From a virus (lineage: Duplodnaviria > Heunggongvirae > Uroviricota > Caudoviricetes), in the IMG/VR virus record IMGVR_UViG_2561511241_000003: a stretch of DNA of 37,150 bases; one strand, 5' to 3'. Within the stretch, counting starts at the first letter, position 1. The number at the start of each line of letters is the position of its first letter. The notes under the pieces were generated by a model, which had not been told where the DNA came from, did no database searches, and worked only from the letters and a program-made list of their open reading frames with translations. Positions 21,902 to 33,048 of the stretch are shown here, one piece after another. The position numbers and the translations under genes were made by a program.

Positions 21902-23653
21902 ATGATTCAGGACGCTTTTGTGCGCCAGCGTGCGCGGCAACTTTACTGGCAGGGTTATCCGCCCGCAGAAATATCACGTCTGATGGGAATAAACCCGAAC
22001 ACGATTTATGCGTGGAAAAAACGCGACCAGTGGGATGAAACGCCACCTGTGCAGCGTGTCACGCAGTCCATCGATGCGCGCCTCATCCAGCTTACTGAAA
22101 AACAGAATAAAACAGGCGGTGACTTTAAGGAAATAGACCTGCTGACCCGGCAGCTTAAAAAGCTGCATGATGGCCAGCCGGATGTGATGGCCGCAGGAAA
22201 GAAAGGCCGGGCGAAAAAACTCAAAAATCATTTCACGCCGGAACAGATTGCCGCACTGCGGGAAAAAATCATCAGCAGGCTGGAGTGGCATCAGCGGGGC
22301 TGGTTTGACTCCCTGACCCTTTGCAGGGAAGCAGGGATACGTAACAGGATGATCCTGAAATCCCGACAGATTGGGGCGACCTGGTATTTTGCACAGGAAG
22401 CTCTGCTGATGGCGCTGCGTGACGATGTGGCGCAACCTTACCAGCGTAACCAGATTTTTTTGTCTGCGTCGCGTCGTCAGGCGTTCCAGTTTAAAAGCAT
22501 TATTCAGAAGGCCGCGGCTGAAGTTGATGTGGAGCTGAAAGGGGGCGATAAAATCATCCTCTCCAACGGCGCAGAGCTGCATTTTCTCGGCACTTCTGCT
22601 GCGTCGGCACAGTCCTATACGGGCAATTTTTATTTTGATGAATTCTTCTGGGTCTGTCGCTTTGCTGAACTGCGCAAGGTGGCTGGCGCTATGGCAACCC
22701 TCAGCGGACTGCGGCGCACCTACTTCTCCACGCCATCCACCGAAACGCACGAGGCATACGCCTACTGGAACGGCGACCGCTGGAACGAGAAAAAGGCCAC
22801 GCATAAACGCCAGCGTTTTTCTGTGGACTGGAAAACGCTGCATAACGGGCTTATCTGCCCTGACCGGACGTGGCGGCAAATTGTCACGCTGGAAGATGTG
22901 GTTAATCACGGCTGGAAACACACCGATATTGATGAAATTCGTGATGAAAACACCGAAGACGAGTTCCTCAATCTTTATATGTGTGAGTTTGTCCGCGAAG
23001 GGGAATCGGCATTTAACCTGAATATCCTGATTGGCTGTGGTGTTGACGGATACGACGACTGGAAAGACTGGAAACCTTTTGCTCCCCGCCCGATGGGGAA
23101 TCGTCCGGTATGGATTGGGTATGACGCAAACGGCAGCAGTGGCAACGGCGACAGCGGCGCTGTGTCCGTGGTGGTTCCTCCGGCTGTTCCTGGTGGCCGT
23201 TTTCGAACGGTGGAGACGCGACGCGTTCAGGGGCTGGAGATTGAAGAACAGGCCAGAGTCATTGAAGAGTTCACGTGTCGCTACAACGTGGAACACATCG
23301 GCATTGATGTGACAGGCGGGAACGGGGAGGCTGTTTATCAGATAGTGAAACGGTTTTTCCCTGCTGCTATTCCGTACACCTTCACGCTGTCATCAAAACG
23401 GTCGCTGGTACTGAAAATGCTGCAAATAATGCGCGCCGGGCGGTGGGAATACGATCGCGCCGAACGCGAGCTGGTCGCAGCCTTTAACGCCGTGCGTAAG
23501 GTGAAAACACCGGGCGGCTTTATCACTTACGAAACGGACCGCGCGAGGGGGATCAGCCACGGCGACCTTGCGTGGGCAACCATGCTTGCTGTCATTAACG
23601 AACCGATTGGCGGCGAAGGAGAAAACGAGCGTTTCACGGTTATGGAGTTCTGA
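21902..23653 (+). CDS. P: terminase ATPase (large) subunit P
   Basis: 583 aa, size and position of P2 gpP. Confidence 0.9.
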   Translation: MIQDAFVRQRARQLYWQGYPPAEISRLMGINPNTIYAWKKRDQWDETPPVQRVTQSIDARLIQLTEKQNKTGGDFKEIDLLTRQLKKLHDGQPDVMAAGKKGRAKKLKNHFTPEQIAALREKIISRLEWHQRGWFDSLTLCREAGIRNRMILKSRQIGATWYFAQEALLMALRDDVAQPYQRNQIFLSASRRQAFQFKSIIQKAAAEVDVELKGGDKIILSNGAELHFLGTSAASAQSYTGNFYFDEFFWVCRFAELRKVAGAMATLSGLRRTYFSTPSTETHEAYAYWNGDRWNEKKATHKRQRFSVDWKTLHNGLICPDRTWRQIVTLEDVVNHGWKHTDIDEIRDENTEDEFLNLYMCEFVREGESAFNLNILIGCGVDGYDDWKDWKPFAPRPMGNRPVWIGYDANGSSGNGDSGAVSVVVPPAVPGGRFRTVETRRVQGLEIEEQARVIEEFTCRYNVEHIGIDVTGGNGEAVYQIVKRFFPAAIPYTFTLSSKRSLVLKMLQIMRAGRWEYDRAERELVAAFNAVRKVKTPGGFITYETDRARGISHGDLAWATMLAVINEPIGGEGENERFTVMEF

Positions 23654-24699
23654 TGAGCAGAAAAAATAAAAAAGTGCGCATGAGTTCACGCATTGATCTC
23701 GCTGATGCGCTCAGGAAAGAATCGTCGCTCAGTGCATTCACATTTGATGGGCCTTATCGCCTGATCGGGCATGACCTGCTGGATAATATGTACTGTGCTG
23801 ATAACGGGCGGTGGTATGAAACCCCGGTGGACTGGTACGGCCTGGCAAGAGCTGCCCGGCAAACGTCCTGGCATCAGTCTGCGCTTTACTTTAAGCGCAA
23901 TGTATTACTCGGTTGCTACATCCCGCACCCGCTGCTTTCCCGGCAGGATTTCTCGGCGCTGGCGCTGGACTGGTTTGTGTTCGGTAACGCATTCCTTGAG
24001 CTTCGAAGCAATATGCTCGGCGAACCGCTTAAATTACGGCACGCCCTGGCGAAATACATGCGACGCGGAAGCGATCTTGAATCATGGTGGTATGTGCAGG
24101 ATGGCAAGGACGCGTTCCAGTTTCGCCCTGGCAAAGTGTGCCACCTGATGAATCCGGATATTAACCAGGAAATCTACGGCATGCCGGAATATCTTGGCGC
24201 ATTACTCTCGGCCAGCCTTTCTCATTCGGCGGACATGTTCAGAAAACTGTACTACGACAACGGATCCCACGCCGGGTGCATCATCTACATCGGTGCAGCG
24301 CAGGTAAACCGCGAAAGCATGGACTCCCTGAAAGAAACGCTACAGGGGGCACGTGGTGGTGGTGCGTTTAAAAACGTGCTCATTCATGCGCCCAACGGGG
24401 GCAAAGAGGGGGTGCAAATTTTGCCGTTCCAGCAGATCACCGCAAAAGATGAGTTCATGAATGTTAAGGCGGCATCCCGTGATGATGTGCTGGCTGCGCA
24501 CCGCGTTCCGCCGCAACTGATGGGGGCGATGCCGGGCGAAAAAAGTGCGTTTGGTGATGTGGAGAAGGCCGCGCGGGTTTACGCAATTAACGAGCTGATG
24601 CCCGTCATGGAGGCCATGAAGCACATCAATGACTGGCTTGGCGAAGAGGTGATCCGCTTTAACCCTTACGCACTGTTAGACACCCAGCCCACATCCTGA
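23653..24699 (+). CDS. Q: portal protein Q
   Basis: 348 aa, translationally coupled to P (ATGA overlap). Size and position match P2 gpQ. Confidence 0.9.
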   Translation: MSRKNKKVRMSSRIDLADALRKESSLSAFTFDGPYRLIGHDLLDNMYCADNGRWYETPVDWYGLARAARQTSWHQSALYFKRNVLLGCYIPHPLLSRQDFSALALDWFVFGNAFLELRSNMLGEPLKLRHALAKYMRRGSDLESWWYVQDGKDAFQFRPGKVCHLMNPDINQEIYGMPEYLGALLSASLSHSADMFRKLYYDNGSHAGCIIYIGAAQVNRESMDSLKETLQGARGGGAFKNVLIHAPNGGKEGVQILPFQQITAKDEFMNVKAASRDDVLAAHRVPPQLMGAMPGEKSAFGDVEKAARVYAINELMPVMEAMKHINDWLGEEVIRFNPYALLDTQPTS

Positions 24700-25192: not shown

Positions 25193-27418
25193 TTACGAAC
25201 GAATAGGAATTGATGTTTGCGGTTGAATTGGCACGAGCACCTGATTATAAGTACGTAAAATTTCGTTATACAGGTCTTGGTGCTTTGATGCCTTAATGGT
25301 AATTATAAGAGCATACTTGATTTTTTCTGCCTTATGGCTGGCTATGCTTGCACCGGCCTCACGAGCGTTATAATGAATGTCAAATACAGGATTTTTTAGA
25401 GTTGAACCTAGCATGTTCTTCGAATTATGTAAGACGGTCTCCCATTTGCCCATGTCAGAACGTCGCTCACTTTCAGTTGAATATTTGGCCAGTTCAAAGA
25501 ATCCCTTGGTTTCAGCATTTTGTTTTCCGTCTTTGATTTTTGAATCATTTGGCCGGAATGTCACTTCCAAACCAGCTTTTGTATAGGAAGCTGGGTCTTG
25601 TGGATCAGTGGTTGTTGCATAACAGAAAGTTGCCGCTAAGTTTATTCTACCTTTCAAGCCACCTTCAGGTATTGGAAGAGGAGCGCGTAAGTATTTTCCT
25701 GGTTTCAATTCACCTTGGTAGACGATACGGGCAACACCATCAGGGCTGACTATAATGTCGTTCAAGTCTTCAGGAAGTTTTCCCCAGCCAACTTCTGTAC
25801 AAGGATGATCAAGCTGTTTTGACGCATGAATTAACAAAGCTTTGATTGCTAGTAGGCTCAAATCGTTCCCTAAAATTGCCCGAACACCAACAGCTGCTCG
25901 TAAGGCGTAAGGAGAGGCAAAGCTTGTTCCTAGCTGGGGTATGATTACAGGCTTCTTACCTTTACCTAAAACATGAAAGTACTCGTCTGTGTCACCACCA
26001 AACGCAACTAAATCCGGTTTCATCACGCCAGGACTTCTGCCTGGCCCAATGGCGCTATATGGTGCTCGTTTCCATTCCGTATCATTAACTGTATCACAAG
26101 CACCAACAGCAAGAGCATTAACGCAATCGGCTGGTACTTGAATTCTTGCATTACCAGACTTGCGATCCATTTCTCCATTGTTGCCAACAGCAACAGTCAT
26201 TAATGTTTCACCATCACTTAACAAATCATCAATAACGGAAGTCCATGCATGAACTTCCGTATCTTCAATTGGTAGGTCTGGACCTAAACTTAGATTGATA
26301 AACTGATACTGGCGAGACAACAATACCTCTTCAATAAAGCCCAAAGTTCGATATAGTTCCAGCGGATCTTCTTGGCAGGTCTTGTTGTCCAAAACTCTTA
26401 AGTTATCAATATAAGAGTATGGTCTTTTCGCTTCCGATTTATTACTTATTGGTCCAAATAAAAAGGCTGAAGACACAGCTAAACCATGCTCTAAACCGTC
26501 TGGATCATCCTCTGCATGATCGTCCAAAACTCTATAGGATTTTAACCATGGCGATATAGCGTGCTCTGATGGTAAACCACCATCAAGAATCGCAACTTTT
26601 ATTTCTGAAGATACGGGGCCCTCAGCAGGCAATTTACACTGAGCTAAAGGACCGTAGTTCCTTTGTATTGGTCTAATCCCACGCAATCTTGGAACCGGTC
26701 TTATTACTCGTACAAATGTAAATTTCGCAAGCTTACTAATAGTAATTCTATCGGCCTGGATTGGCACGAACCATAATGTACCAGCGGTAAAAGCTAATGA
26801 AGTATGTACTTTGATGTTCAAATTTGATGCAAACTGAACAAATTGTTGCTGAACCAAGTCTTGTTCATTATCTGGCAGTAAATGAACACCAACCTCAAAA
26901 TACGAAGAATCCTGCTCACCAATGGTAATAATACGCTCTTCGGGTAAATAGGCATCGAACCGTTCTATGCGTGCAAAATCAATCGCTTCGTCAGAAAACT
27001 CTTTGAGTCCTGACACCCAATGAGGTAACTCTTTGAAGGATTCTCTTTTACCAGCAACAAACATTTGTGTCGTAGTTACTTCTGACACAGTAACTTTTCG
27101 CTTCCAGCTTTGAGGCGTAATTTTTACCGTCCTGCTGCCAATAGACGTTAACCCGGTAGACTTAAGCATTTTTGCAGGAAAAAAAGAGCGTGCAATATAG
27201 CTCGGATTCAACGTCAACTTAGCCACAGCATAATCATAAGGACATGCCTGACTGGGTAAATCATCAAAATTTTCTATAGTAGATGCAATTTGCGGCAATA
27301 AACGTTGTTTCGATTCGTAAAGAGAATAAACCTCAGCTTTTCCGGGCACTCTTTTAGGACCAGGAATATCGCTGGTTAATAATTCGCCGCGTCCAATCAG
27401 AAAATTAGTTTTCGCCAT
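25193..27418 (-). CDS. cytoplasmic S8 subtilase-like serine protease with unassigned N- and C-terminal regions (741 aa)
   Basis: Catalytic motifs in canonical order: Asp279 (KVAILDGG), His311 (EHGLAVSS), Asn413/414 (VGNNGE), Ser499 (GTSFASP). No signal peptide or propeptide. Residues 1-270 and 540-741 carry no motif I recognise. AT-rich codon usage. Confidence 0.85.
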   Translation of the reverse strand: MAKTNFLIGRGELLTSDIPGPKRVPGKAEVYSLYESKQRLLPQIASTIENFDDLPSQACPYDYAVAKLTLNPSYIARSFFPAKMLKSTGLTSIGSRTVKITPQSWKRKVTVSEVTTTQMFVAGKRESFKELPHWVSGLKEFSDEAIDFARIERFDAYLPEERIITIGEQDSSYFEVGVHLLPDNEQDLVQQQFVQFASNLNIKVHTSLAFTAGTLWFVPIQADRITISKLAKFTFVRVIRPVPRLRGIRPIQRNYGPLAQCKLPAEGPVSSEIKVAILDGGLPSEHAISPWLKSYRVLDDHAEDDPDGLEHGLAVSSAFLFGPISNKSEAKRPYSYIDNLRVLDNKTCQEDPLELYRTLGFIEEVLLSRQYQFINLSLGPDLPIEDTEVHAWTSVIDDLLSDGETLMTVAVGNNGEMDRKSGNARIQVPADCVNALAVGACDTVNDTEWKRAPYSAIGPGRSPGVMKPDLVAFGGDTDEYFHVLGKGKKPVIIPQLGTSFASPYALRAAVGVRAILGNDLSLLAIKALLIHASKQLDHPCTEVGWGKLPEDLNDIIVSPDGVARIVYQGELKPGKYLRAPLPIPEGGLKGRINLAATFCYATTTDPQDPASYTKAGLEVTFRPNDSKIKDGKQNAETKGFFELAKYSTESERRSDMGKWETVLHNSKNMLGSTLKNPVFDIHYNAREAGASIASHKAEKIKYALIITIKASKHQDLYNEILRTYNQVLVPIQPQTSIPIRS

Positions 27419-27441
27419 ACATACTCCTTATCTATGCTGTA

Positions 27442-28563
27442 TTACATTTTTTGACTGTATTTTCTAATTGTATCCCTACTGACTCCGGTTAAGTCTGATA
27501 TGGCATGCTGGGATAATTTAGAATTTCTTTTTAGAGTAACTGCAATTTCTTTACGTTCATTCCTGTCTAATTCTGATAAACCATCTTTAATGAACGACCC
27601 AATCAACTCTTCATCTGAGGAAATACCTAAAGCGACCGAACGTCGGAATTTGTTGATAGAACGCTCAATATTACTAAAAGATTCATTTTTGAACATAATA
27701 GCCAGTAGATCTATCCAACGTGCAAAAATCGCGTAGTCGGGACCTGAAAAGCGTTTAATTGCTTCTTTAATACTTTCGCTATCTGGCTTCTCAAAATTGA
27801 GCACTAAATCAAAACGTCTCCATAGTGCTGGATCAATCAACTCAGCGAAGTTAGTTGCAGCAAGTAGCAAACTAGAAGACGGCCATTCGTCAACCTCCTG
27901 GAGTATTACGGTAACAAGTCTTTTTAATTCTCCAACATCAGAATCATCACTTCTCTTTTTGGCGATTGAATCAATTTCATCTAACAGAAGAACGCACGGC
28001 CCTTTCTTCGCAAAATCTAGAGCTGCCCGAAGGTTATTTCCGCTTTTGCCCAGATAGCTGCTCATTACTGCCGTTAAATCAAGAACGTAAAAAGGAACCC
28101 CTAATTTCTGAGCTAACCAGCTTGCCGTAAGTGTTTTACCTACACCCGGAGGGCCAACAAAAATGGCAGAGCGTGTTGGTTGTAAGCCGAGAGTCTTGAG
28201 GCGATCGATGTGCTTCCGCTCAAGAATAATTTGATCCAGTGAGTCTTCTATCTGACTGGACAGTAGAGGTTTGCTCACAATCTTTTCATTTGGTGCTTTA
28301 AGCAAGGTAAGCCTTGACTCCTCGTCCACAGGCATGGTTTGAGGCAGCGCTTGTTTTGGTGCGGTAACCTTACGCAGGCTTTGTGCAGGCTTTTGCGGTT
28401 TATTTCGTAGATAAAGATCAAGCTGCTCGGATAGAGCAGGCATAGTTTCCCGATATTTACGCACCAAGCGAGCGACATATAACCGAACGTCATCATACTG
28501 TTCAGTTATTACCAGTCTAACTAGTTGGGCTAAATCTGACTGAATACCACCTAAGTCGCCCAT
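27442..28563 (-). CDS. AAA+ ATPase with C-terminal helix-turn-helix (373 aa)
   Basis: Walker A GPPGVGKT (137-144), Walker B LLLDEID (192-198), sensor-1 Asn in AATNFA, RRFD arginine finger, C-terminal HTH ~340-370 (LSQHAISDLTGVSRDTIRKY). SD AAGAGG upstream. 23 bp upstream of the subtilase gene. Confidence 0.85.
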   Translation of the reverse strand: MGDLGGIQSDLAQLVRLVITEQYDDVRLYVARLVRKYRETMPALSEQLDLYLRNKPQKPAQSLRKVTAPKQALPQTMPVDEESRLTLLKAPNEKIVSKPLLSSQIEDSLDQIILERKHIDRLKTLGLQPTRSAIFVGPPGVGKTLTASWLAQKLGVPFYVLDLTAVMSSYLGKSGNNLRAALDFAKKGPCVLLLDEIDSIAKKRSDDSDVGELKRLVTVILQEVDEWPSSSLLLAATNFAELIDPALWRRFDLVLNFEKPDSESIKEAIKRFSGPDYAIFARWIDLLAIMFKNESFSNIERSINKFRRSVALGISSDEELIGSFIKDGLSELDRNERKEIAVTLKRNSKLSQHAISDLTGVSRDTIRKYSQKM

Positions 28564-28599
28564 CTTAACTGTAACCTCTTGATTTTAAGTGAATTGAAA

Positions 28600-28645
28600 A
28601 AACATTTAACTGGACTATTTATAGTATTGCACTTTTTTATCAAAC
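28600..28645 (-). promoter_or_regulatory. candidate sigma70 promoter of the ATPase-subtilase operon
   Basis: On the minus strand, TTGATA then ~15 bp then ATAAAT/TATAAA lies inside the AT-rich 180-bp leader. Coordinates are approximate. Confidence 0.3.
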
Positions 28646-28743
28646 AGGGAAGAGGAATACTATATGAAATTACAGTGTGCCTCATGGAACGTCCTTACCA
28701 TGTCTAAACTCTACCTTCATACAATTGATGATTTCTTTCTTGG

Positions 28744-31509
28744 TTATTTTTTCTTCTCGCTATTGCCTTTGCCCTGCAACAGACCCGCCTTGTGACGTGC
28801 GCGTTCAGTGGTTTCATTGATTCTCTGTGCGTGCTCTGCGTCACGGATGGCGCGCAGCATGTCAGAAAGCACGGTAACGGGAGTTTTCATGGTGTTCTGG
28901 TCCTGCTGAATTGTGGATGCCAGGCGTGCGGCGGCTTCTGGGTCTGATGCCCCGAGCTGTTTCAGATAGCTGGAAACCGGGTTATGGCGGATTTCCGTGC
29001 TGTTTACGCTGTGATTACGACTCAGGCGCTGCCAGAGTTGCGTGATTCGGCTGTCCGGTCGGGTATCCGGTTTACATACAATTTCATATCCCTGCGGCGC
29101 AATGATGCTGCCGTCAACGTACAGACTGCCGCCCCGTAACAGGTGCAGCATCTGTTGTTCACCGATATGCAGGCCGAGAGATTCGGCAGACTCCCGCCAT
29201 TCTTTAGCGAGTAACTCGTGGTTATCAGGCAAAGGCCGCGGCTGTTTGCGGCTCTGTGTCCAGTTCTGCATTTCATCACTGTTGTTTTTTGCCTGTTTGT
29301 CACGCAGCGAACGCATCAGCGCCCGGCGTTCGTGCCGTTTCAGTGAGCGCATCCATTCATCCACATCAACGCCGTCAGGAAGCTGCGGCCACGGTGCTGG
29401 CCGTTCTTCCGACTGTTCTGTCCCGCTGTTGCCTGTTTCCTGTACACGGGGACAGTTATTGCCACGAGTCCAAGGGGCGGCAGGGCCGCCCTGAAGGTCA
29501 AAACCATTTTCGTGGGCGTTGTCTTCTGGTTCTGGTTTACGTCTTACCAATTTCCAGTTATCCGGATGCGTGCACACACGGGAGGATTCCCCGATGAGTG
29601 GTGACCAGATCCCGTAAATCTGTACGCTCTGTTCGCCGTAATCGTTCAGCTCATCTGCGAGGTCGTAGGCGGTGCGAATCAGGTAGTCCTTGCGTGGAAC
29701 AAGCACGCCACCCTGTTTTTCAATGTAGGTGGCAAAACACCCGGCATCGGCGGCAGCGAGTACCGCATCCATTGCATCATCTTTCAGCCGTTGCGGGCCT
29801 TCCGGATTGCGTGCCATCTGGCTGGCAAGGCGGCGCAGTTCACGCCACACCTGACGGGAGGGGATGCCAAAGAACTGGAACTGACGGACCCGGTGAAGGC
29901 GCGCCCAGCCGATGGCGCGCTCCACGCTCTCGGCCATTGATTTTCCGGTTTCGTGGTCAACGCGTGGCTTGCCCGTTTTCGGGTCGATGCCATCCACGGC
30001 GCGGCTGTCCAGGTTCTTTCCGATGTAGGTGGCGATGTAGCTGGTTGGTGTGCCTTTTGAGCCGTCGACATACTCCGCCTTAAAACGCGGAGTTATGTCA
30101 TCGCCCAGCTCGTGGCGGTCCTCCTGAATGGCAATATCGCAGACGTGGGACACGATGGTTTCAATCTCGTCCGGATGTGCAAAGACCATCATATGCCAGT
30201 GCACAGTGCCGTCATGGTGAGGCTCCACCGTGCGGATGCCATACCAGCGCAGGCCGTCGCGGTTCAGTTTTTTGCGGACCGCCGCAAAAAACGTGTTAAC
30301 CAGGTAATCGCTGGAGTCGCGCATGGTGGCCCCGTTCCATTTGGGGTTCGGATGACCGTTCTCCGTTGTTGCGTGGTATTTTGACGGGCAGGTGACGGTC
30401 AGAAACACCGCTCTGTCGCCACGGGCTTCGGCCAGAAGTTCCAGTCCCTTCATGGTGGCCATCATTTCTGCCTTACGGTGAACCGGGTTACTTACTCCCG
30501 CGTAATACACCGTCTCGAGATCAATCGTGAACCCGTCTTCATTTTCCAGCATGAAACTTTTCAGGAAATCGCGTGTTTTCTCGCGCTGTGCGCGAAACTC
30601 GCTTAACGCGTCCTGGCTCAGATAGGGCGATGTTTTTCTGGAAACCAGACAGGCGGCGCGGAGTTGTTCTTCCCGCCACTCGCAACGTAACAGCCACAGT
30701 TTGCGTTTCCACCATTCCGCACAGGTCAGGCGAAGGATTGCGCCCGGCAGCAGCTCCGTGTCTGGTTCGTTCCTCCGGTCTTTGTCTGTTGTCAGTGCGT
30801 CATAATGTGGAGGCATGGCGTGCAGGTGTAACGCCATGCGGGCCAGCATCTGATACGCCTTCAGCGTTACATCCATGGTCAGCTCGCCATCGGTCGCGCC
30901 AAAGCCATCGCAGAGTTTTTCGAAGGTGCTGCTGAACATCGCCGCCGTCATGGTGGCCAGCGTCTGTATCTGGTGTTTGTTGAGCTGCGGCAGGTAAAGC
31001 AAATCGTCCAGGCGTTCGCGTCCGGCAAGGGAGCGATAACCCGGTGTCAGCCAGCGGTGATCGGTGCGGTCCAGACGTTCGAATATTTTGCGCAGGGTTC
31101 CGCGTGCATAGCGTTCCGCCTGCCAGCTCTTTTTGCCTTTCCGGCGATCGGCTTCCTGTTTTTTGCGCAGGAAGGAGAGGTGGCGAATAAGCGGATCGCG
31201 CAGATAGGACGGCAGCAGGCGCAGCGAGGCCATGGCTTCATCCACTGCGCCGCGTGCCTGTTTTCTGGCGTCTCCTGCCAGTGTGATGGTTTTGTCCTGT
31301 TTTTCCTGTGCGTCCAGGCTTTTATTAATCAGGTTGCCCAGCGGCGTGGCGGAGAACGCCGCATCAGCCATTTCCTTGCGGCGCTCGTTCTCTGCCCGGT
31401 AGGCATCCAGCCAGGAGGAAAGCGCGGATTCAGGAGCGGGGATCCCCGTTCCTTCACGCCCCACTGCGTGGCGCGGTTGTTGCCAGTCCCTGATGTGCTC
31501 TGCCGTCAT
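28744..31509 (-). CDS. A: replication initiation protein A (rolling-circle nickase)
   Basis: 921 aa with the histidine motif GTVHWHMMVF and the tyrosine-containing region of P2 gpA-type initiators. The C-terminal ~150 aa look like an extension relative to my memory of P2 A (~760 aa). Confidence 0.88.
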   Translation of the reverse strand: MTAEHIRDWQQPRHAVGREGTGIPAPESALSSWLDAYRAENERRKEMADAAFSATPLGNLINKSLDAQEKQDKTITLAGDARKQARGAVDEAMASLRLLPSYLRDPLIRHLSFLRKKQEADRRKGKKSWQAERYARGTLRKIFERLDRTDHRWLTPGYRSLAGRERLDDLLYLPQLNKHQIQTLATMTAAMFSSTFEKLCDGFGATDGELTMDVTLKAYQMLARMALHLHAMPPHYDALTTDKDRRNEPDTELLPGAILRLTCAEWWKRKLWLLRCEWREEQLRAACLVSRKTSPYLSQDALSEFRAQREKTRDFLKSFMLENEDGFTIDLETVYYAGVSNPVHRKAEMMATMKGLELLAEARGDRAVFLTVTCPSKYHATTENGHPNPKWNGATMRDSSDYLVNTFFAAVRKKLNRDGLRWYGIRTVEPHHDGTVHWHMMVFAHPDEIETIVSHVCDIAIQEDRHELGDDITPRFKAEYVDGSKGTPTSYIATYIGKNLDSRAVDGIDPKTGKPRVDHETGKSMAESVERAIGWARLHRVRQFQFFGIPSRQVWRELRRLASQMARNPEGPQRLKDDAMDAVLAAADAGCFATYIEKQGGVLVPRKDYLIRTAYDLADELNDYGEQSVQIYGIWSPLIGESSRVCTHPDNWKLVRRKPEPEDNAHENGFDLQGGPAAPWTRGNNCPRVQETGNSGTEQSEERPAPWPQLPDGVDVDEWMRSLKRHERRALMRSLRDKQAKNNSDEMQNWTQSRKQPRPLPDNHELLAKEWRESAESLGLHIGEQQMLHLLRGGSLYVDGSIIAPQGYEIVCKPDTRPDSRITQLWQRLSRNHSVNSTEIRHNPVSSYLKQLGASDPEAAARLASTIQQDQNTMKTPVTVLSDMLRAIRDAEHAQRINETTERARHKAGLLQGKGNSEKKK

Positions 31510-32184: not shown

Positions 32185-32506
32185 GGTGTGGCCCCTTGTG
32201 TAGTAAGTTGTGAAAACTCACCATCCAGAGCTGCGAAACTGTGGGTGGCGAGACGTACGAGGTTCGCAGTACCGGCTACACAAGAACCCGGCCCGACCGA
32301 AGTCGGCCCCGTACGCCCCGCCATAATTCTGACGCGAAAAAAACGTGGCAATACAGTACGCACAAAAAAACCGCTGGCGCGGTTGTGCGCTTGTGTAGTC
32401 AGCAGGCTGCGAAACCCGGCACCCGTTTTGTGAGGTGCAGCAGAAATGTAACCTGACTGATTGCGGCATGGCAAGCGGTTTTTTTGTGTGTGCATGTTCT
32501 GGTTTC

Positions 32507-32806: not shown

Positions 32807-33048
32807 GCTCTGGCTTCCTTCAGTAGCTGGTTAAACATGTTGGTAAGTGGATTGCCGCACCCGAACGGCATCGGGTTTATCTGGTAAGAAAAGCGACCGC
32901 CTGTTTTGCGCTCTTTTCTTATGACTGAACCGCTGCGCCAGAGTCGGCGTAACTCCGCATTAATGGCTGTGGTTGGGGTATTCAGTGCTGCGGCGATCTC
33001 TCCGCCGCTACACCCCGGATGAGTAGCGATGTAGTCCAGAATGGTCAT
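32803..33048 (-). CDS. hypothetical winged-helix-like DNA-binding protein (81 aa)
   Basis: MTILDYIATHPGCSGGEIAAALNTPTTAINAELRRLWRSG resembles a wHTH recognition unit. Confidence 0.45.
   Translation of the reverse strand: MTILDYIATHPGCSGGEIAAALNTPTTAINAELRRLWRSGSVIRKERKTGGRFSYQINPMPFGCGNPLTNMFNQLLKEARA

What the first reader, a model, noticed from the sequence alone, without database searches (positions are those of the whole stretch)
27442..28563. ATPase partner carries a C-terminal helix-turn-helix
The AAA+ core (residues ~130-260) is followed by about 110 residues ending in a recognisable HTH (LSQHAISDLTGVSRDTIRKY). Such a small AAA+ with an HTH could autoregulate the operon or recognise nucleic acid. 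The N-terminal ~130 residues are unassigned. This architecture is one way to separate the module from housekeeping AAA proteases.
Basis: seen in the sequence. Interest (0 to 1): 0.5.

Follow-up and report, generated by a model that had tools for sequence, protein, structure and literature searches.

The report
IetA ATPase carries a DNA-reading tail
The gene is IetA, the ATPase half of the known IetAS anti-phage/toxin-antitoxin pair carried by a P2-like prophage. Its C-terminal helix-turn-helix is real, conserved across phyla, and matched by a conserved operator on its own promoter, so it most likely switches its own operon off.

Summary
ORF 27442-28563 (minus strand, 373 aa) has a classical AAA+ core (Pfam residues 134-258) and ends in a predicted helix-turn-helix (HTH) (helices 334-347, 352-359, 363-372). 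The protein is IetA. The S8 protease IetS follows 23 nt downstream. The pair sits in the gpA-to-portal cargo site of an E. coli P2-like prophage.

The HTH is a family feature. Across 122 relatives at 35-58% identity, residues 351-368 are the best-conserved stretch outside the ATPase core.

Upstream of ietA in 79 genomes from many phyla, the most enriched 7-mer is TAGTCCA/TGGACTA. It occurs in 33 of 79 upstream regions, against 2 of 77 and 0 of 71 controls. In 30 loci it forms an inverted repeat, TGGnnnA-N23/24-TnnnCCA, around the -35 box; shuffled sequences gave 0.2 loci on average.

Of 363 scorable IetA positions, the first residue of the recognition helix (S362) tracks the operator variant best.

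The window keeps only one half-site, TAGTCCA at 28611-28617, 5 nt after an extended -10.

The best reading is that IetA represses the ietAS promoter, as type II antitoxins do. This is inferred, not shown. The system is known. I found no description of the HTH or the operator.

The parts
27442..28563 (-). ietA: 373-aa classical-clade AAA+ ATPase with a C-terminal HTH (stop codon included).
   Evidence: ORF listed. PADLOC IetA E = 1e-77 over residues 9-372. NCBIfam IteA scores 223 bits, below the equivalog cut-off of 510. Pfam AAA E = 2.6e-30.
28405..28554 (-). N-terminal three-helix bundle (residues 4-53). It is conserved but has no family assignment.
   Evidence: AF2 helices 4-19, 23-40 and 42-53, block-mean pLDDT about 62-83. 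Many invariant residues among relatives at 64% identity or more. No Pfam hit.
28282..28395 (-). Predicted disordered linker (residues 57-94) that carries conserved residues R64, P78, D80, R84, L87, L88 and K89.
   Evidence: pLDDT below 50 for residues 57-86 and 92-94. Invariant columns listed; R64 nearly invariant.
27790..28164 (-). AAA+ large subdomain (residues 134-258). It contains Walker A (GPPGVGKT), Walker B (LLLDEID), a pore-loop-1-like Y170-L171-G172, sensor-1 N238 and the arginine pair R249/R250.
   Evidence: Pfam PF00004. G137, G140, G142, K143, D195, D198, N238, R249 and R250 are invariant among 50 sequences down to 33% identity. The closest solved chains are p97/Cdc48, FIGL-1, proteasome Rpt subunits and FtsH.
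27628..27780 (-). AAA+ lid (small helical subdomain), residues 262-312.
   Evidence: AF2 helices 262-281, 284-290 and 296-312. The S295-F296-S297 motif is conserved.
27445..27627 (-). C-terminal four-helix domain (residues 313-373). The HTH is helices 334-347, 352-359 and 363-372, and the recognition helix starts at S362/R363.
   Evidence: Domain model with pLDDT 90.7. Residues 351-368 are the best-conserved stretch outside the ATPase core. Sub-threshold hits to about a dozen HTH Pfam families over the same residues. Position 362 ranks 1st of 363 for mutual information with the operator class.
28611..28617 (-). Operator half-site TAGTCCA, starting 54 nt upstream of the ATG. It probably spans the transcription start.
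   Evidence: TAGTCCA/TGGACTA is the top enriched 7-mer upstream of ietA (33/79 loci, against 2/77 and 0/71 controls). Six of its seven bases are invariant in the Enterobacterales leader alignment. A half-site lies 50-63 nt upstream of the start codon in 17 of 18 loci of the window's clade; the chance of one at -70..-40 in a shuffled upstream is 0.034.
28623..28631 (-). Candidate extended -10 element, TGcAATACT.
   Evidence: The pattern TGn-nAnnnT lies 3-5 nt before the half-site in 17 of 18 loci of the clade. This is a consensus reading only; the transcription start has not been mapped.
28646..28651 (-). Candidate -35 element, TTCCCT, 17 nt upstream of the -10. It aligns with CTTTCC/CTTCACA in relatives.
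   Evidence: Alignments. This is an inference. The scan tool offered an alternative, TTGATA (28643-28638) with AATAGT, but that pairing is not conserved in L001.
28656..28676 (-). Conserved leader block ACTGTAATTTCATATAGTATT. Its 3' part (TATAGTATT) is the left arm of inverted repeat I1; the right arm overlaps the -10. Its role is unknown.
   Evidence: I1 arms at 28650-28664 and 28620-28634, 13 of 15 bases complementary. The block is kept in the Salmonella, Serratia, Klebsiella and Photorhabdus leaders.
28575..28580 (-). Shine-Dalgarno sequence AAGAGG for ietA.
   Evidence: CAAGAGGTT is conserved in the six aligned Enterobacterales leaders (CAAAAGGTT in L085); eight of its nine columns are invariant.
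25193..27418 (-). ietS: 741-aa S8 (subtilisin-like) peptidase, 23 nt downstream of ietA. It is the toxin/effector partner.
   Evidence: Pfam Peptidase_S8 E = 2.5e-19. PADLOC IetS E = 6.7e-52 over residues 36-726. An ietS homologue lies downstream of ietA in 79 of 80 related loci, within about 110 nt in all but two (L016, L030).

Best explanation
The ORF encodes IetA, the AAA+ ATPase ('antitoxin') of the two-gene IetAS toxin-antitoxin / abortive-infection system. Here it is cargo of a P2-like prophage, between the replication gene A and the portal gene. IetA has four parts: an N-terminal helical bundle, a disordered linker, a catalytically intact classical AAA+ unfoldase-type module, and a C-terminal helix-turn-helix (HTH).

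The HTH most likely binds a specific operator that overlaps the ietAS promoter. The half-site is T(A/C)(G/T)TCCA. In most lineages two inverted copies lie 30-31 bp apart around the -35 box. In the window's lineage there is one copy just after the -10. Binding would let IetA repress its own operon, as type II antitoxins do.

Two inverted half-sites three helical turns apart (about 100 A) fit two HTHs from two-fold-related subunits of an AAA+ ring better than a compact dimer. If so, promoter occupancy would report the assembly state or abundance of IetA. When a phage trigger or a transcription shut-off removes IetA's control, the protease IetS is freed and the operon is derepressed.

What is shown here: the domain layout, the conservation of the HTH, the strict ietA-ietS pairing, the existence, position and symmetry of the operator, and the co-variation with residue 362. 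What is inferred: DNA binding itself, repression rather than activation, hexamer geometry, and the link to protease control.
For: Identity and context:
- Full-length IetA and IetS matches in PADLOC.
- The same gpA-ietA-ietS-portal layout in E. coli, Serratia and Klebsiella.
- ietS lies downstream of ietA in 79 of 80 loci from Proteobacteria, Actinobacteria, Firmicutes, Planctomycetes, Acidobacteria and Bacteroidetes, immediately so in all but two.

HTH:
- AF2 predicts a tri-helical motif with pLDDT 80-90.
- Residues 351-368 are the best-conserved segment outside the ATPase core in 122 representatives.
- More divergent relatives keep HTH-like C-termini with different recognition helices.

Operator:
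- In an unbiased k-mer count, TAGTCCA/TGGACTA occurs in 33 of 79 upstream regions, against 2/77 and 0/71 controls. TCGTCCA occurs in 22 of 79, against 4 and 3.
- 30 of 79 loci have TGGnnnA...TnnnCCA inverted pairs at a start-to-start distance of 29-31 bp. Shuffles gave a mean of 0.2 and a maximum of 2.
- Both arms change together: TGGACTA/TAGTCCA, TGGACGA/TCGTCCA, TGGAAGA/TCTTCCA.
- In 10 of 30 pairs the spacer holds a TTGACA-like -35 box (at least 5 of 6 bases), and the right arm lies between the -35 and -10.

Protein-DNA co-variation:
- Position 362, the first residue of the recognition helix, has the highest bias-corrected mutual information with operator class among 363 positions.
- Ser goes with TAGTCCA in 31 of 31 loci. 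Ala goes with TCTTCCA in 9 of 9 and with TTCGCCA in 6 of 6.
- On a tree built without the HTH, the Ser/Ala switch occurs in several separate clades. Sister pairs include L035 (Ser, TAGTCCA) versus L055 (Ala, TCTTCCA), and L044 versus L040.

Window lineage:
- The TAGTCCA half-site is invariant except for one base in one sequence among Enterobacterales leaders.
- It follows an extended -10 by 3-5 nt in 17 of 18 loci.

Literature: IetA behaves as the antitoxin and IetS as the protease toxin. The system acts by abortive infection. Its mechanism was still stated to be unknown in 2026 (PMC13069673; bioRxiv 10.1101/2022.08.27.505566).
Against: - No binding, footprint or expression data exist here.
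- The window's own leader has one half-site, and I found no convincing inverted partner at 30-31 bp. Binding there may be weak, may need the other conserved leader block, or may differ in mode.
- Within the window alone, TAGTCCA is no more frequent than chance: 2 copies against 2.2 expected. Its significance rests entirely on comparison between genomes.
- No Pfam HTH model reaches its threshold.
- The co-variation is confounded by shared ancestry. The class TCGTCCA occurs with both Ser and Ala.
- The promoter elements are consensus readings without a mapped transcription start.
Confidence: 0.65

Rival explanations
1. The HTH is mainly a DNA tether or sensor. IetA would sit on DNA (host, prophage or incoming phage) to detect infection or to place the protease, and any effect on its own promoter would be secondary.
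For: Phage mutants that escape IetAS map to replication-related or unknown phage proteins, and the system acts by abortive infection (bioRxiv 10.1101/2022.08.27.505566). A variant, ietHAS, recruits a DNA helicase (PMC13069673). That suggests the system has some connection with nucleic acids.
Against: The only conserved site found lies on the ietA promoter itself, at a fixed distance from the start codon. The near-invariant recognition helix and the co-varying operator point to sequence-specific recognition rather than general DNA binding. In the window, the only other TAGTCCA copy is at chance level.
Confidence: 0.15
2. The C-terminal helices are not a DNA-binding motif. They would mediate protein contacts (ring packing, or docking of IetS or a phage trigger), and some other factor would bind the conserved upstream repeat.
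For: Fold matches are weak and include non-DNA-binding helical proteins. No HTH Pfam model reaches its threshold. HTH-like helices serve as protein-binding modules in some proteins (general knowledge).
Against: IetA and IetS are the only proteins that always travel with the repeat across phyla, and only IetA has an HTH. Of 363 IetA positions, the one that tracks the operator variant best is the first residue of the predicted recognition helix. The G-x-S-R-D-T-I-R-K pattern is typical of a turn followed by a recognition helix, and it is what the HTH models align to.
Confidence: 0.1
3. IetA binds the operator but activates transcription, or remodels the promoter complex using ATP, in the manner of AAA+ enhancer-binding proteins.
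For: AAA+ proteins with a C-terminal HTH include the sigma-54 activators (established knowledge). About nine loci have additional sites roughly 75 bp upstream, reminiscent of upstream activating sequences.
Against: The AAA+ module belongs to the classical Cdc48/FtsH/Rpt type, and Sigma54_activat was not among its Pfam matches. The promoters read as sigma-70 type. The half-sites overlap the -35/-10 spacer, or the start site in the window's clade. Those are repressor positions.
Confidence: 0.1

Closest known systems
IetAS (ietA/ietS) toxin-antitoxin and anti-phage system (pTiC58 of Agrobacterium, Yamamoto et al. 2009; defence role, Gao et al. 2020)
   Same: It is the same two-gene module in the same order: an AAA+ ATPase followed by an S8 peptidase. 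Homology to the PADLOC IetA and IetS models is full-length. It sits on a mobile element. Rhizobial plasmid homologues are among the 80 loci and share the HTH and the operator.
   Different: Scores fall below the NCBIfam equivalog cut-offs (223 against 510 for IetA; 137 against 900 for IetS), so this is a divergent homologue of the reference pair. In the papers I could search, I found no description of the HTH or of the promoter operator. The 2009 paper and the Gao et al. paper could not be read.
Type II toxin-antitoxin antitoxins with an HTH (HigA, Xre-type and similar) that autorepress their operon
   Same: The antitoxin gene comes first, it carries an HTH, and an inverted-repeat operator overlaps the promoter. 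Eleven of 15 C-terminal segments give sub-threshold hits to the Xre-like antitoxin HTH family.
   Different: Here the antitoxin is a 373-aa ATP-driven AAA+ machine, not a small labile protein. The half-sites are 30-31 bp apart rather than adjacent. The toxin is a 741-aa protease.
AAA+ proteins with a C-terminal DNA-binding domain (NtrC/PspF enhancer-binding proteins, DnaA, Orc1/Cdc6, RuvB)
   Different: Those proteins belong to other AAA+ clades. IetA's ATPase is of the classical Cdc48/FtsH/Rpt type, with a pore-loop-like YLG and the second region of homology. To my knowledge this clade is not known for sequence-specific DNA binding.
Vps4/katanin/spastin-type AAA ATPases
   Same: The layout is similar: an N-terminal three-helix bundle, a long disordered linker, then a single classical AAA module. 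The FIGL-1 AAA domain is among the best structural matches.
   Different: I did not test whether the N-terminal bundle is MIT-like. Those proteins have no HTH and no protease partner.

Membership tests
IetA (ATPase of IetAS) | Full-length homology to IetA family models | tested here: met
   PADLOC PDLC02196 gives E = 1e-77, residues 9-372 on profile positions 5-370 of 374. PDLC02195 gives E = 2e-72.
IetA (ATPase of IetAS) | Reaches NCBIfam's equivalog cut-off for the anti-phage ATPase IteA (NF042959) | tested here: not met
   223.3 bits against a cut-off of 510. The protein is a homologue of the reference but not an equivalog by that criterion. RefSeq names it only 'AAA family ATPase'.
IetA (ATPase of IetAS) | Adjacent, co-oriented S8 peptidase (IetS) directly downstream | tested here: met
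   ORF 25193-27418 lies 23 nt downstream. Pfam Peptidase_S8 E = 2.5e-19 and PADLOC IetS E = 6.7e-52. An ietS homologue lies downstream of ietA in 79 of 80 related loci.
IetA (ATPase of IetAS) | Neutralises IetS toxicity, and the pair protects against phage | not testable with these tools
   This is known only for other members of the family (PMC13069673; bioRxiv 10.1101/2022.08.27.505566; PMC8562856).
Classical-clade AAA ATPase | Walker A and B, sensor-1 Asn, paired arginines of the second region of homology, aromatic-hydrophobic-Gly pore loop | tested here: met
   GPPGVGKT, LLLDEID, N238, R249/R250 and Y170-L171-G172 are present. The catalytic residues are invariant in 50 sequences. The best matches among solved structures are Cdc48/p97, Rpt subunits and FtsH.
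Helix-turn-helix DNA-binding domain | Three-helix core with a short turn before the recognition helix | tested here: met
   AF2 helices 334-347, 352-359 and 363-372. The domain model has pLDDT 90.7. Top Foldseek matches superpose on the HTH cores of FapR, DeoR and others at 1.7-3.0 A over about 40 residues, but with E >= 0.28.
Helix-turn-helix DNA-binding domain | Significant match to a curated HTH family | tested here: not met
Helix-turn-helix DNA-binding domain | Binds DNA | not testable with these tools
   There is indirect support only: the conserved operator, and its co-variation with residue 362.
Autoregulated type II toxin-antitoxin operon | Antitoxin first, with an inverted-repeat operator overlapping its own promoter | tested here: met
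   This is met for the family: 30 of 79 loci have the palindrome around a -35-like box. In the window itself there is a single half-site next to the -10.
Autoregulated type II toxin-antitoxin operon | Labile antitoxin that neutralises the toxin by direct binding | not tested
   No data. IetA's intact ATPase and pore loop suggest an active mechanism rather than simple binding (inference).
Sigma-54 enhancer-binding proteins | Sigma54_activat-type AAA+ domain with a GAFTGA loop and a Fis-type HTH | tested here: not met
   Neither Sigma54_activat nor HTH_8 is among the Pfam matches at E <= 0.1; the ATPase matches PF00004.

The most novel reading that the evidence does not exclude
IetA would be a classical-clade AAA+ unfoldase that is also a sequence-specific repressor. 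In this reading, two-fold-related subunits of the ring read inverted half-sites three helical turns apart, with a second site about 75 bp upstream in some lineages. Promoter occupancy, ring assembly and control of the IetS protease would then be coupled in one protein. That would give the first mechanistic handle on how IetAS is kept silent and then released during infection.
Probability: 0.35. Interest if true: 0.65.

Novelty: new member of a known kind. Interest (0 to 1): 0.45.

Why it matters
IetAS is widespread on plasmids, prophages and genomic islands, and its mechanism was still stated to be unknown in 2026 (PMC13069673).

Showing that the ATPase carries a conserved DNA-reading domain with a defined operator, TGGAC(T/G)A-N23/24-T(A/C)GTCCA, gives concrete experiments. 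The binding site, the residue to mutate (S362, with a predicted Ser-to-Ala switch in specificity) and the promoter to report on are all now specified.

It also explains a practical point. Expression from native promoters is probably self-limited, so assays run from foreign promoters may misjudge toxicity or defence strength.

For annotation, the HTH together with the operator is a simple signature. It separates IetA-type ATPases from housekeeping AAA proteins, which RefSeq currently labels with the same generic name.

Tried and rejected
- **Curated HTH family.** No Pfam HTH model reaches its threshold, and the hits are spread over about a dozen families. I therefore do not assign the domain to any one family.
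- **Solved structures.** The PDB sequence search and the full-model fold search returned only generic AAA ATPases. No IetA structure was found.
- **Left half-site in the window.** I looked for TGGACTA 30-31 bp upstream of TAGTCCA and found none. The one TGGAnnA-N-TnnTCCA match in the window lies inside the ietA coding sequence, with non-complementary arms, and is at chance level (15 of 100 shuffles).
- **Possible upstream site.** A CGTTCCA about 128 nt upstream of the ATG resembles the far-upstream site of distant loci. It is absent from the 94%-identical Salmonella leader, so I rejected it.
- **Repeat I1.** The within-leader inverted repeat I1 is conserved in four enteric leaders, but its arms do not match the family half-site. 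Its role is left open.
- **Promoter reading.** The scan tool's pairing of TTGATA with AATAGT is not conserved in L001. I prefer the conserved extended -10.
- **RNA explanations.** Rfam has no hit in the leader. The 5' UTR folds no better than shuffles (z = +1.6). The palindrome lies upstream of the likely transcription start.
- **Sigma-54 activator model.** Rejected on the ATPase clade and on the position of the sites.
- **Literature.** Yamamoto et al. 2009 could not be retrieved. No held paper mentions IetA together with helix-turn-helix.
Full report
**What is at the coordinates**

The ORF 27442-28563 runs on the minus strand and encodes 373 residues. Pfam places an AAA domain at residues 134-258 (E = 2.6e-30). 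A second ORF of 741 residues (25193-27418, minus strand) begins 23 nt downstream and is an S8 subtilase.

In PADLOC the two proteins match IetA (E = 1e-77, residues 9-372 of 373) and IetS (E = 6.7e-52). In NCBIfam they hit the IteA and IteS anti-phage models but score below the equivalog cut-offs, at 223 against 510 and 137 against 900.

**Genomic context**

The pair is a low-GC insert (39-46% against about 55-58%). It lies between the P2-type replication gene A (28744-31509) and the portal gene (23653-24699). The same 3.8 kb is present at 99% identity or more in 42 of 5,426 complete E. coli genomes.

In strain ETEC1749 it sits in a P2-family prophage, with integrase, Cox, gpA, portal, terminase and capsid genes around it. 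RefSeq labels the two genes only 'AAA family ATPase' and 'S8 family peptidase'. Serratia and Klebsiella homologues (84% and 73% identity) occupy the same gpA-to-portal site.

**Anatomy of the protein**

AlphaFold2, run with 26 homologues, gives mean pLDDT 73.7. It predicts these parts:
- a three-helix bundle, residues 4-53;
- a disordered linker, residues 57-94;
- the AAA+ alpha/beta subdomain, roughly residues 103-256;
- the helical lid, residues 262-312;
- four further helices: 317-330, 334-347, 352-359 and 363-372.

The last three helices, with a three-residue turn between the final two, form a tri-helical helix-turn-helix (HTH). Folded alone with 15 homologous segments, residues 313-373 reach pLDDT 90.7.

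The ATPase looks catalytically intact and belongs to the classical clade. Walker A (GPPGVGKT), Walker B (LLLDEID), sensor-1 N238 and the arginine pair R249/R250 are invariant in 50 sequences down to 33% identity. There is a pore-loop-like Y170-L171-G172. The nearest solved proteins are p97/Cdc48, FIGL-1, proteasomal Rpt subunits and FtsH.

No IetA structure turned up among PDB sequences or folds.

**Is the HTH more than a chance resemblance?**

Curated sequence models give only a generic, sub-threshold signal. The full-length protein hits HTH_11 at 19.1 bits against a cut-off of 25. Fourteen of 15 homologous C-terminal segments hit HTH_11 and 13 of 15 hit HTH_23, always over helices 2-3.

The strong evidence is conservation:
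- Among relatives at 64% identity or more, L350, Q352, S356, T359 and S362-K368 are invariant.
- Among 122 cluster representatives at 35-58% identity, residues 351-368 are the best-conserved stretch outside the ATPase core. The consensus is G-x-LSQR-x-ISELTGVSRDTIRK, and T365 is kept in 115 of 123 sequences.
- More divergent relatives, whose C-termini no longer align, still end in HTH-like sequences with different recognition helices.

**Related loci and the operator**

A scan of one genome per species returned 80 loci from many phyla. In 79 of them an ietS homologue lies downstream of ietA, immediately so in all but two. The IetA match runs to residue 367-373 of the query in every locus.

Reading the upstream regions suggested a repeated motif, so I tested it without presupposing it. 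Among all 7-mers in the 150 nt upstream of ietA, TAGTCCA/TGGACTA ranks first. It is present in 33 of 79 loci, against 2 of 77 control segments inside ietS and 0 of 71 segments taken 1.5 kb upstream. TCGTCCA/TGGACGA ranks second, at 22 against 4 and 3.

Thirty of 79 loci carry an inverted pair, TGGnnnA...TnnnCCA, with a start-to-start distance of 29-31 bp. Shuffled upstream regions gave 0.2 such loci on average and never more than 2.

The half-site consensus is an A-rich tract followed by T-(A/C)-(G/t)-T-C-C-A-(C/T). The right arm usually starts 43-56 nt before the start codon (median -51). In 10 of 30 pairs the 23-24 nt spacer contains a TTGACA-like hexamer just before the right arm, followed about 10 nt later by a -10-like hexamer. 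The site therefore straddles the -35 box and fills the spacer. That is the position of a repressor.

Both arms change together: TGGACTA/TAGTCCA, TGGACGA/TCGTCCA and TGGAAGA/TCTTCCA. The arm sequence itself is conserved across phyla. This points to recognition by a symmetric protein rather than to an RNA hairpin.

About nine loci have a further half-site or palindrome about 75 bp upstream. One clade (L021-L029) instead has direct repeats of TTCGCCA about 12 bp apart.

**Linking the operator to the HTH**

I classed each locus by its dominant half-site and computed bias-corrected mutual information with every alignable IetA position. Position 362, the first residue of the predicted recognition helix, ranks first of 363:
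- Ser goes with TAGTCCA in 31 of 31 loci.
- Ala goes with TCTTCCA in 9 of 9 and with TTCGCCA in 6 of 6.
- TCGTCCA occurs with 9 Ser and 3 Ala.
- D364E occurs only with TCTTCCA, in 5 of 9 loci of that class.

All positions share the same phylogeny, so ranking first is meaningful, but it is not a formal phylogenetic test.

On a neighbour-joining tree built without the HTH region, the Ser/Ala change appears in several separate clades, each with a change of operator. Examples are L035 (Ser, TAGTCCA) next to L055 (Ala, TCTTCCA), and L044 next to L040.

**The window's own leader**

In the window's lineage (beta- and gamma-proteobacteria, 59% identity or more) only the right half-site is kept. It starts 50-63 nt before the start codon, 3-5 nt after an extended -10 of the form TGn-nAnnnT, in 17 of 18 loci. 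The chance of a half-site at -70..-40 in a shuffled upstream is 0.034.

In the window this reads TGcAATACT (28631-28623), then ATAAA, then TAGTCCA (28617-28611). A transcript would therefore start within the half-site. This is inferred and has not been mapped.

I aligned six Enterobacterales leaders whose proteins are 70-94% identical. The invariant columns fall mostly in the -10, the half-site (six of seven bases), the Shine-Dalgarno sequence and an upstream block, ACTGTAATTTCATATAGTATT.

Part of that block pairs with the -10 region as a 13-of-15 inverted repeat whose arms are 30 nt apart. I could not relate it to the family half-site, and its role is left open.

I found no partner half-site at 30-31 bp. 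Within the window alone, TAGTCCA is not over-represented (2 copies against 2.2 expected). Rfam finds nothing in the leader, and the 5' UTR is unstructured.

**Mechanism**

The papers I could read state the following:
- IetAS was first described as a plasmid-stabilising toxin-antitoxin pair, with the protease as toxin and the ATPase as antitoxin.
- An ietA mutant could not be cloned.
- The anti-phage mechanism 'remains unknown' (PMC13069673).
- A Bacillus IetAS acts by abortive infection and is triggered by a phage protein (bioRxiv 10.1101/2022.08.27.505566).
- Mycoplasma homologues behave as toxin-antitoxin pairs (PMC8562856).
- E. coli IetAS is often prophage-borne and gives limited protection on its own (bioRxiv 10.1101/2022.08.21.504612).

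Against this background, the most economical reading is that IetA's HTH binds the operator and represses ietAS, as type II antitoxins do.

Inverted half-sites three helical turns apart (about 100 A) and on one face of the DNA would suit HTHs on two-fold-related subunits of an AAA+ ring. That geometric argument is mine and is untested. So are the direction of regulation and any coupling to release of the protease.

**Comparison and novelty**

The module is a member of the known IetAS kind, divergent from the NCBIfam reference. The domain order (AAA+ followed by an HTH) recalls enhancer-binding proteins, DnaA and Orc/Cdc6, but the ATPase clade is different and there is no Sigma54_activat match.

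I found no held paper that mentions IetA together with a helix-turn-helix. I could not read Yamamoto et al. 2009 or Gao et al. 2020, so prior notice of the HTH cannot be excluded.

The system is therefore not new. What appears to be new is the conserved HTH, the defined operator and the protein-DNA co-variation, which make the regulation of IetAS directly testable.

**Verdict**

It is an ordinary member of a known system with a useful mechanistic lead that appears not to have been described before. Interest is 0.45.

Noticed in passing
window 15556-15673 (-): Rfam ALIL pseudoknot (115.8 bits). This is the frameshift element of IS3-family transposases, so an insertion sequence probably sits inside the prophage late-gene region. 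In the identical E. coli record, RefSeq marks a 'phage virion morphogenesis protein' and a hypothetical protein as incomplete (locus L089 13-477 and 1077-1481, i.e. roughly window 16000-17500).
   Followed up: no
window 32241-32328 (-) and 32364-32438 (-): Rfam C4 antisense RNA (83 bits) and isrK Hfq-binding RNA (64 bits) lie side by side in the early region beyond gene A. This is a P1/P7-type antisense immunity element inside a P2-like prophage.
   Followed up: no
window 28282-28395 (-), IetA residues 57-94: The linker is predicted to be disordered, yet it carries conserved residues: R64 is nearly invariant, and P78, D80, R84, L87, L88 and K89 are invariant among relatives at 64% identity or more. 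It could be a short linear motif, for example for docking IetS or a substrate.
   Followed up: partly
window 28405-28554 (-), IetA residues 4-53: A conserved N-terminal three-helix bundle, followed by a long linker and a single classical AAA module, recalls the MIT-linker-AAA layout of Vps4, katanin and spastin. No family match was found and no fold search was run on this domain.
   Followed up: no
window 28656-28676 (-) and 28620-28634: The leader block ACTGTAATTTCATATAGTATT is conserved in the Salmonella, Serratia, Klebsiella and Photorhabdus leaders. Its TATAGTATT pairs with AATACTATA at the -10 (13 of 15 bases, arms 30 nt apart). It could be a lineage-specific second operator element. This is unresolved.
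   Followed up: partly
loci L021-L029 (upstream of ietA, about 37-71 nt before the start codon): One clade replaces the palindrome with direct repeats of TTCGCCA about 12 bp apart, after a TTATTGAC -35-like box. Its IetA has Ala at position 362 and an altered helix 2 (HTHMQISQMTG).
   Followed up: partly
loci L039, L045, L048, L050, L051, L053, L058, L059, L060, L063: These loci have an additional half-site or a full second palindrome about 75 bp (about seven helical turns) upstream of the promoter-proximal operator. That suggests multi-site binding or looping.
   Followed up: no
window 33032-33038 (+): This is the only other exact TAGTCCA in the window. It lies in a lower-GC stretch (about 45%). 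The count is at chance level (2 found, 2.2 expected).
   Followed up: no
window 25193-28563; locus L089: RefSeq (PGAP) annotates the pair only as 'AAA family ATPase' and 'S8 family peptidase', because both score below the NCBIfam IteA and IteS cut-offs. As a result, this prophage-borne IetAS lineage is invisible by name in genome annotations.
   Followed up: yes
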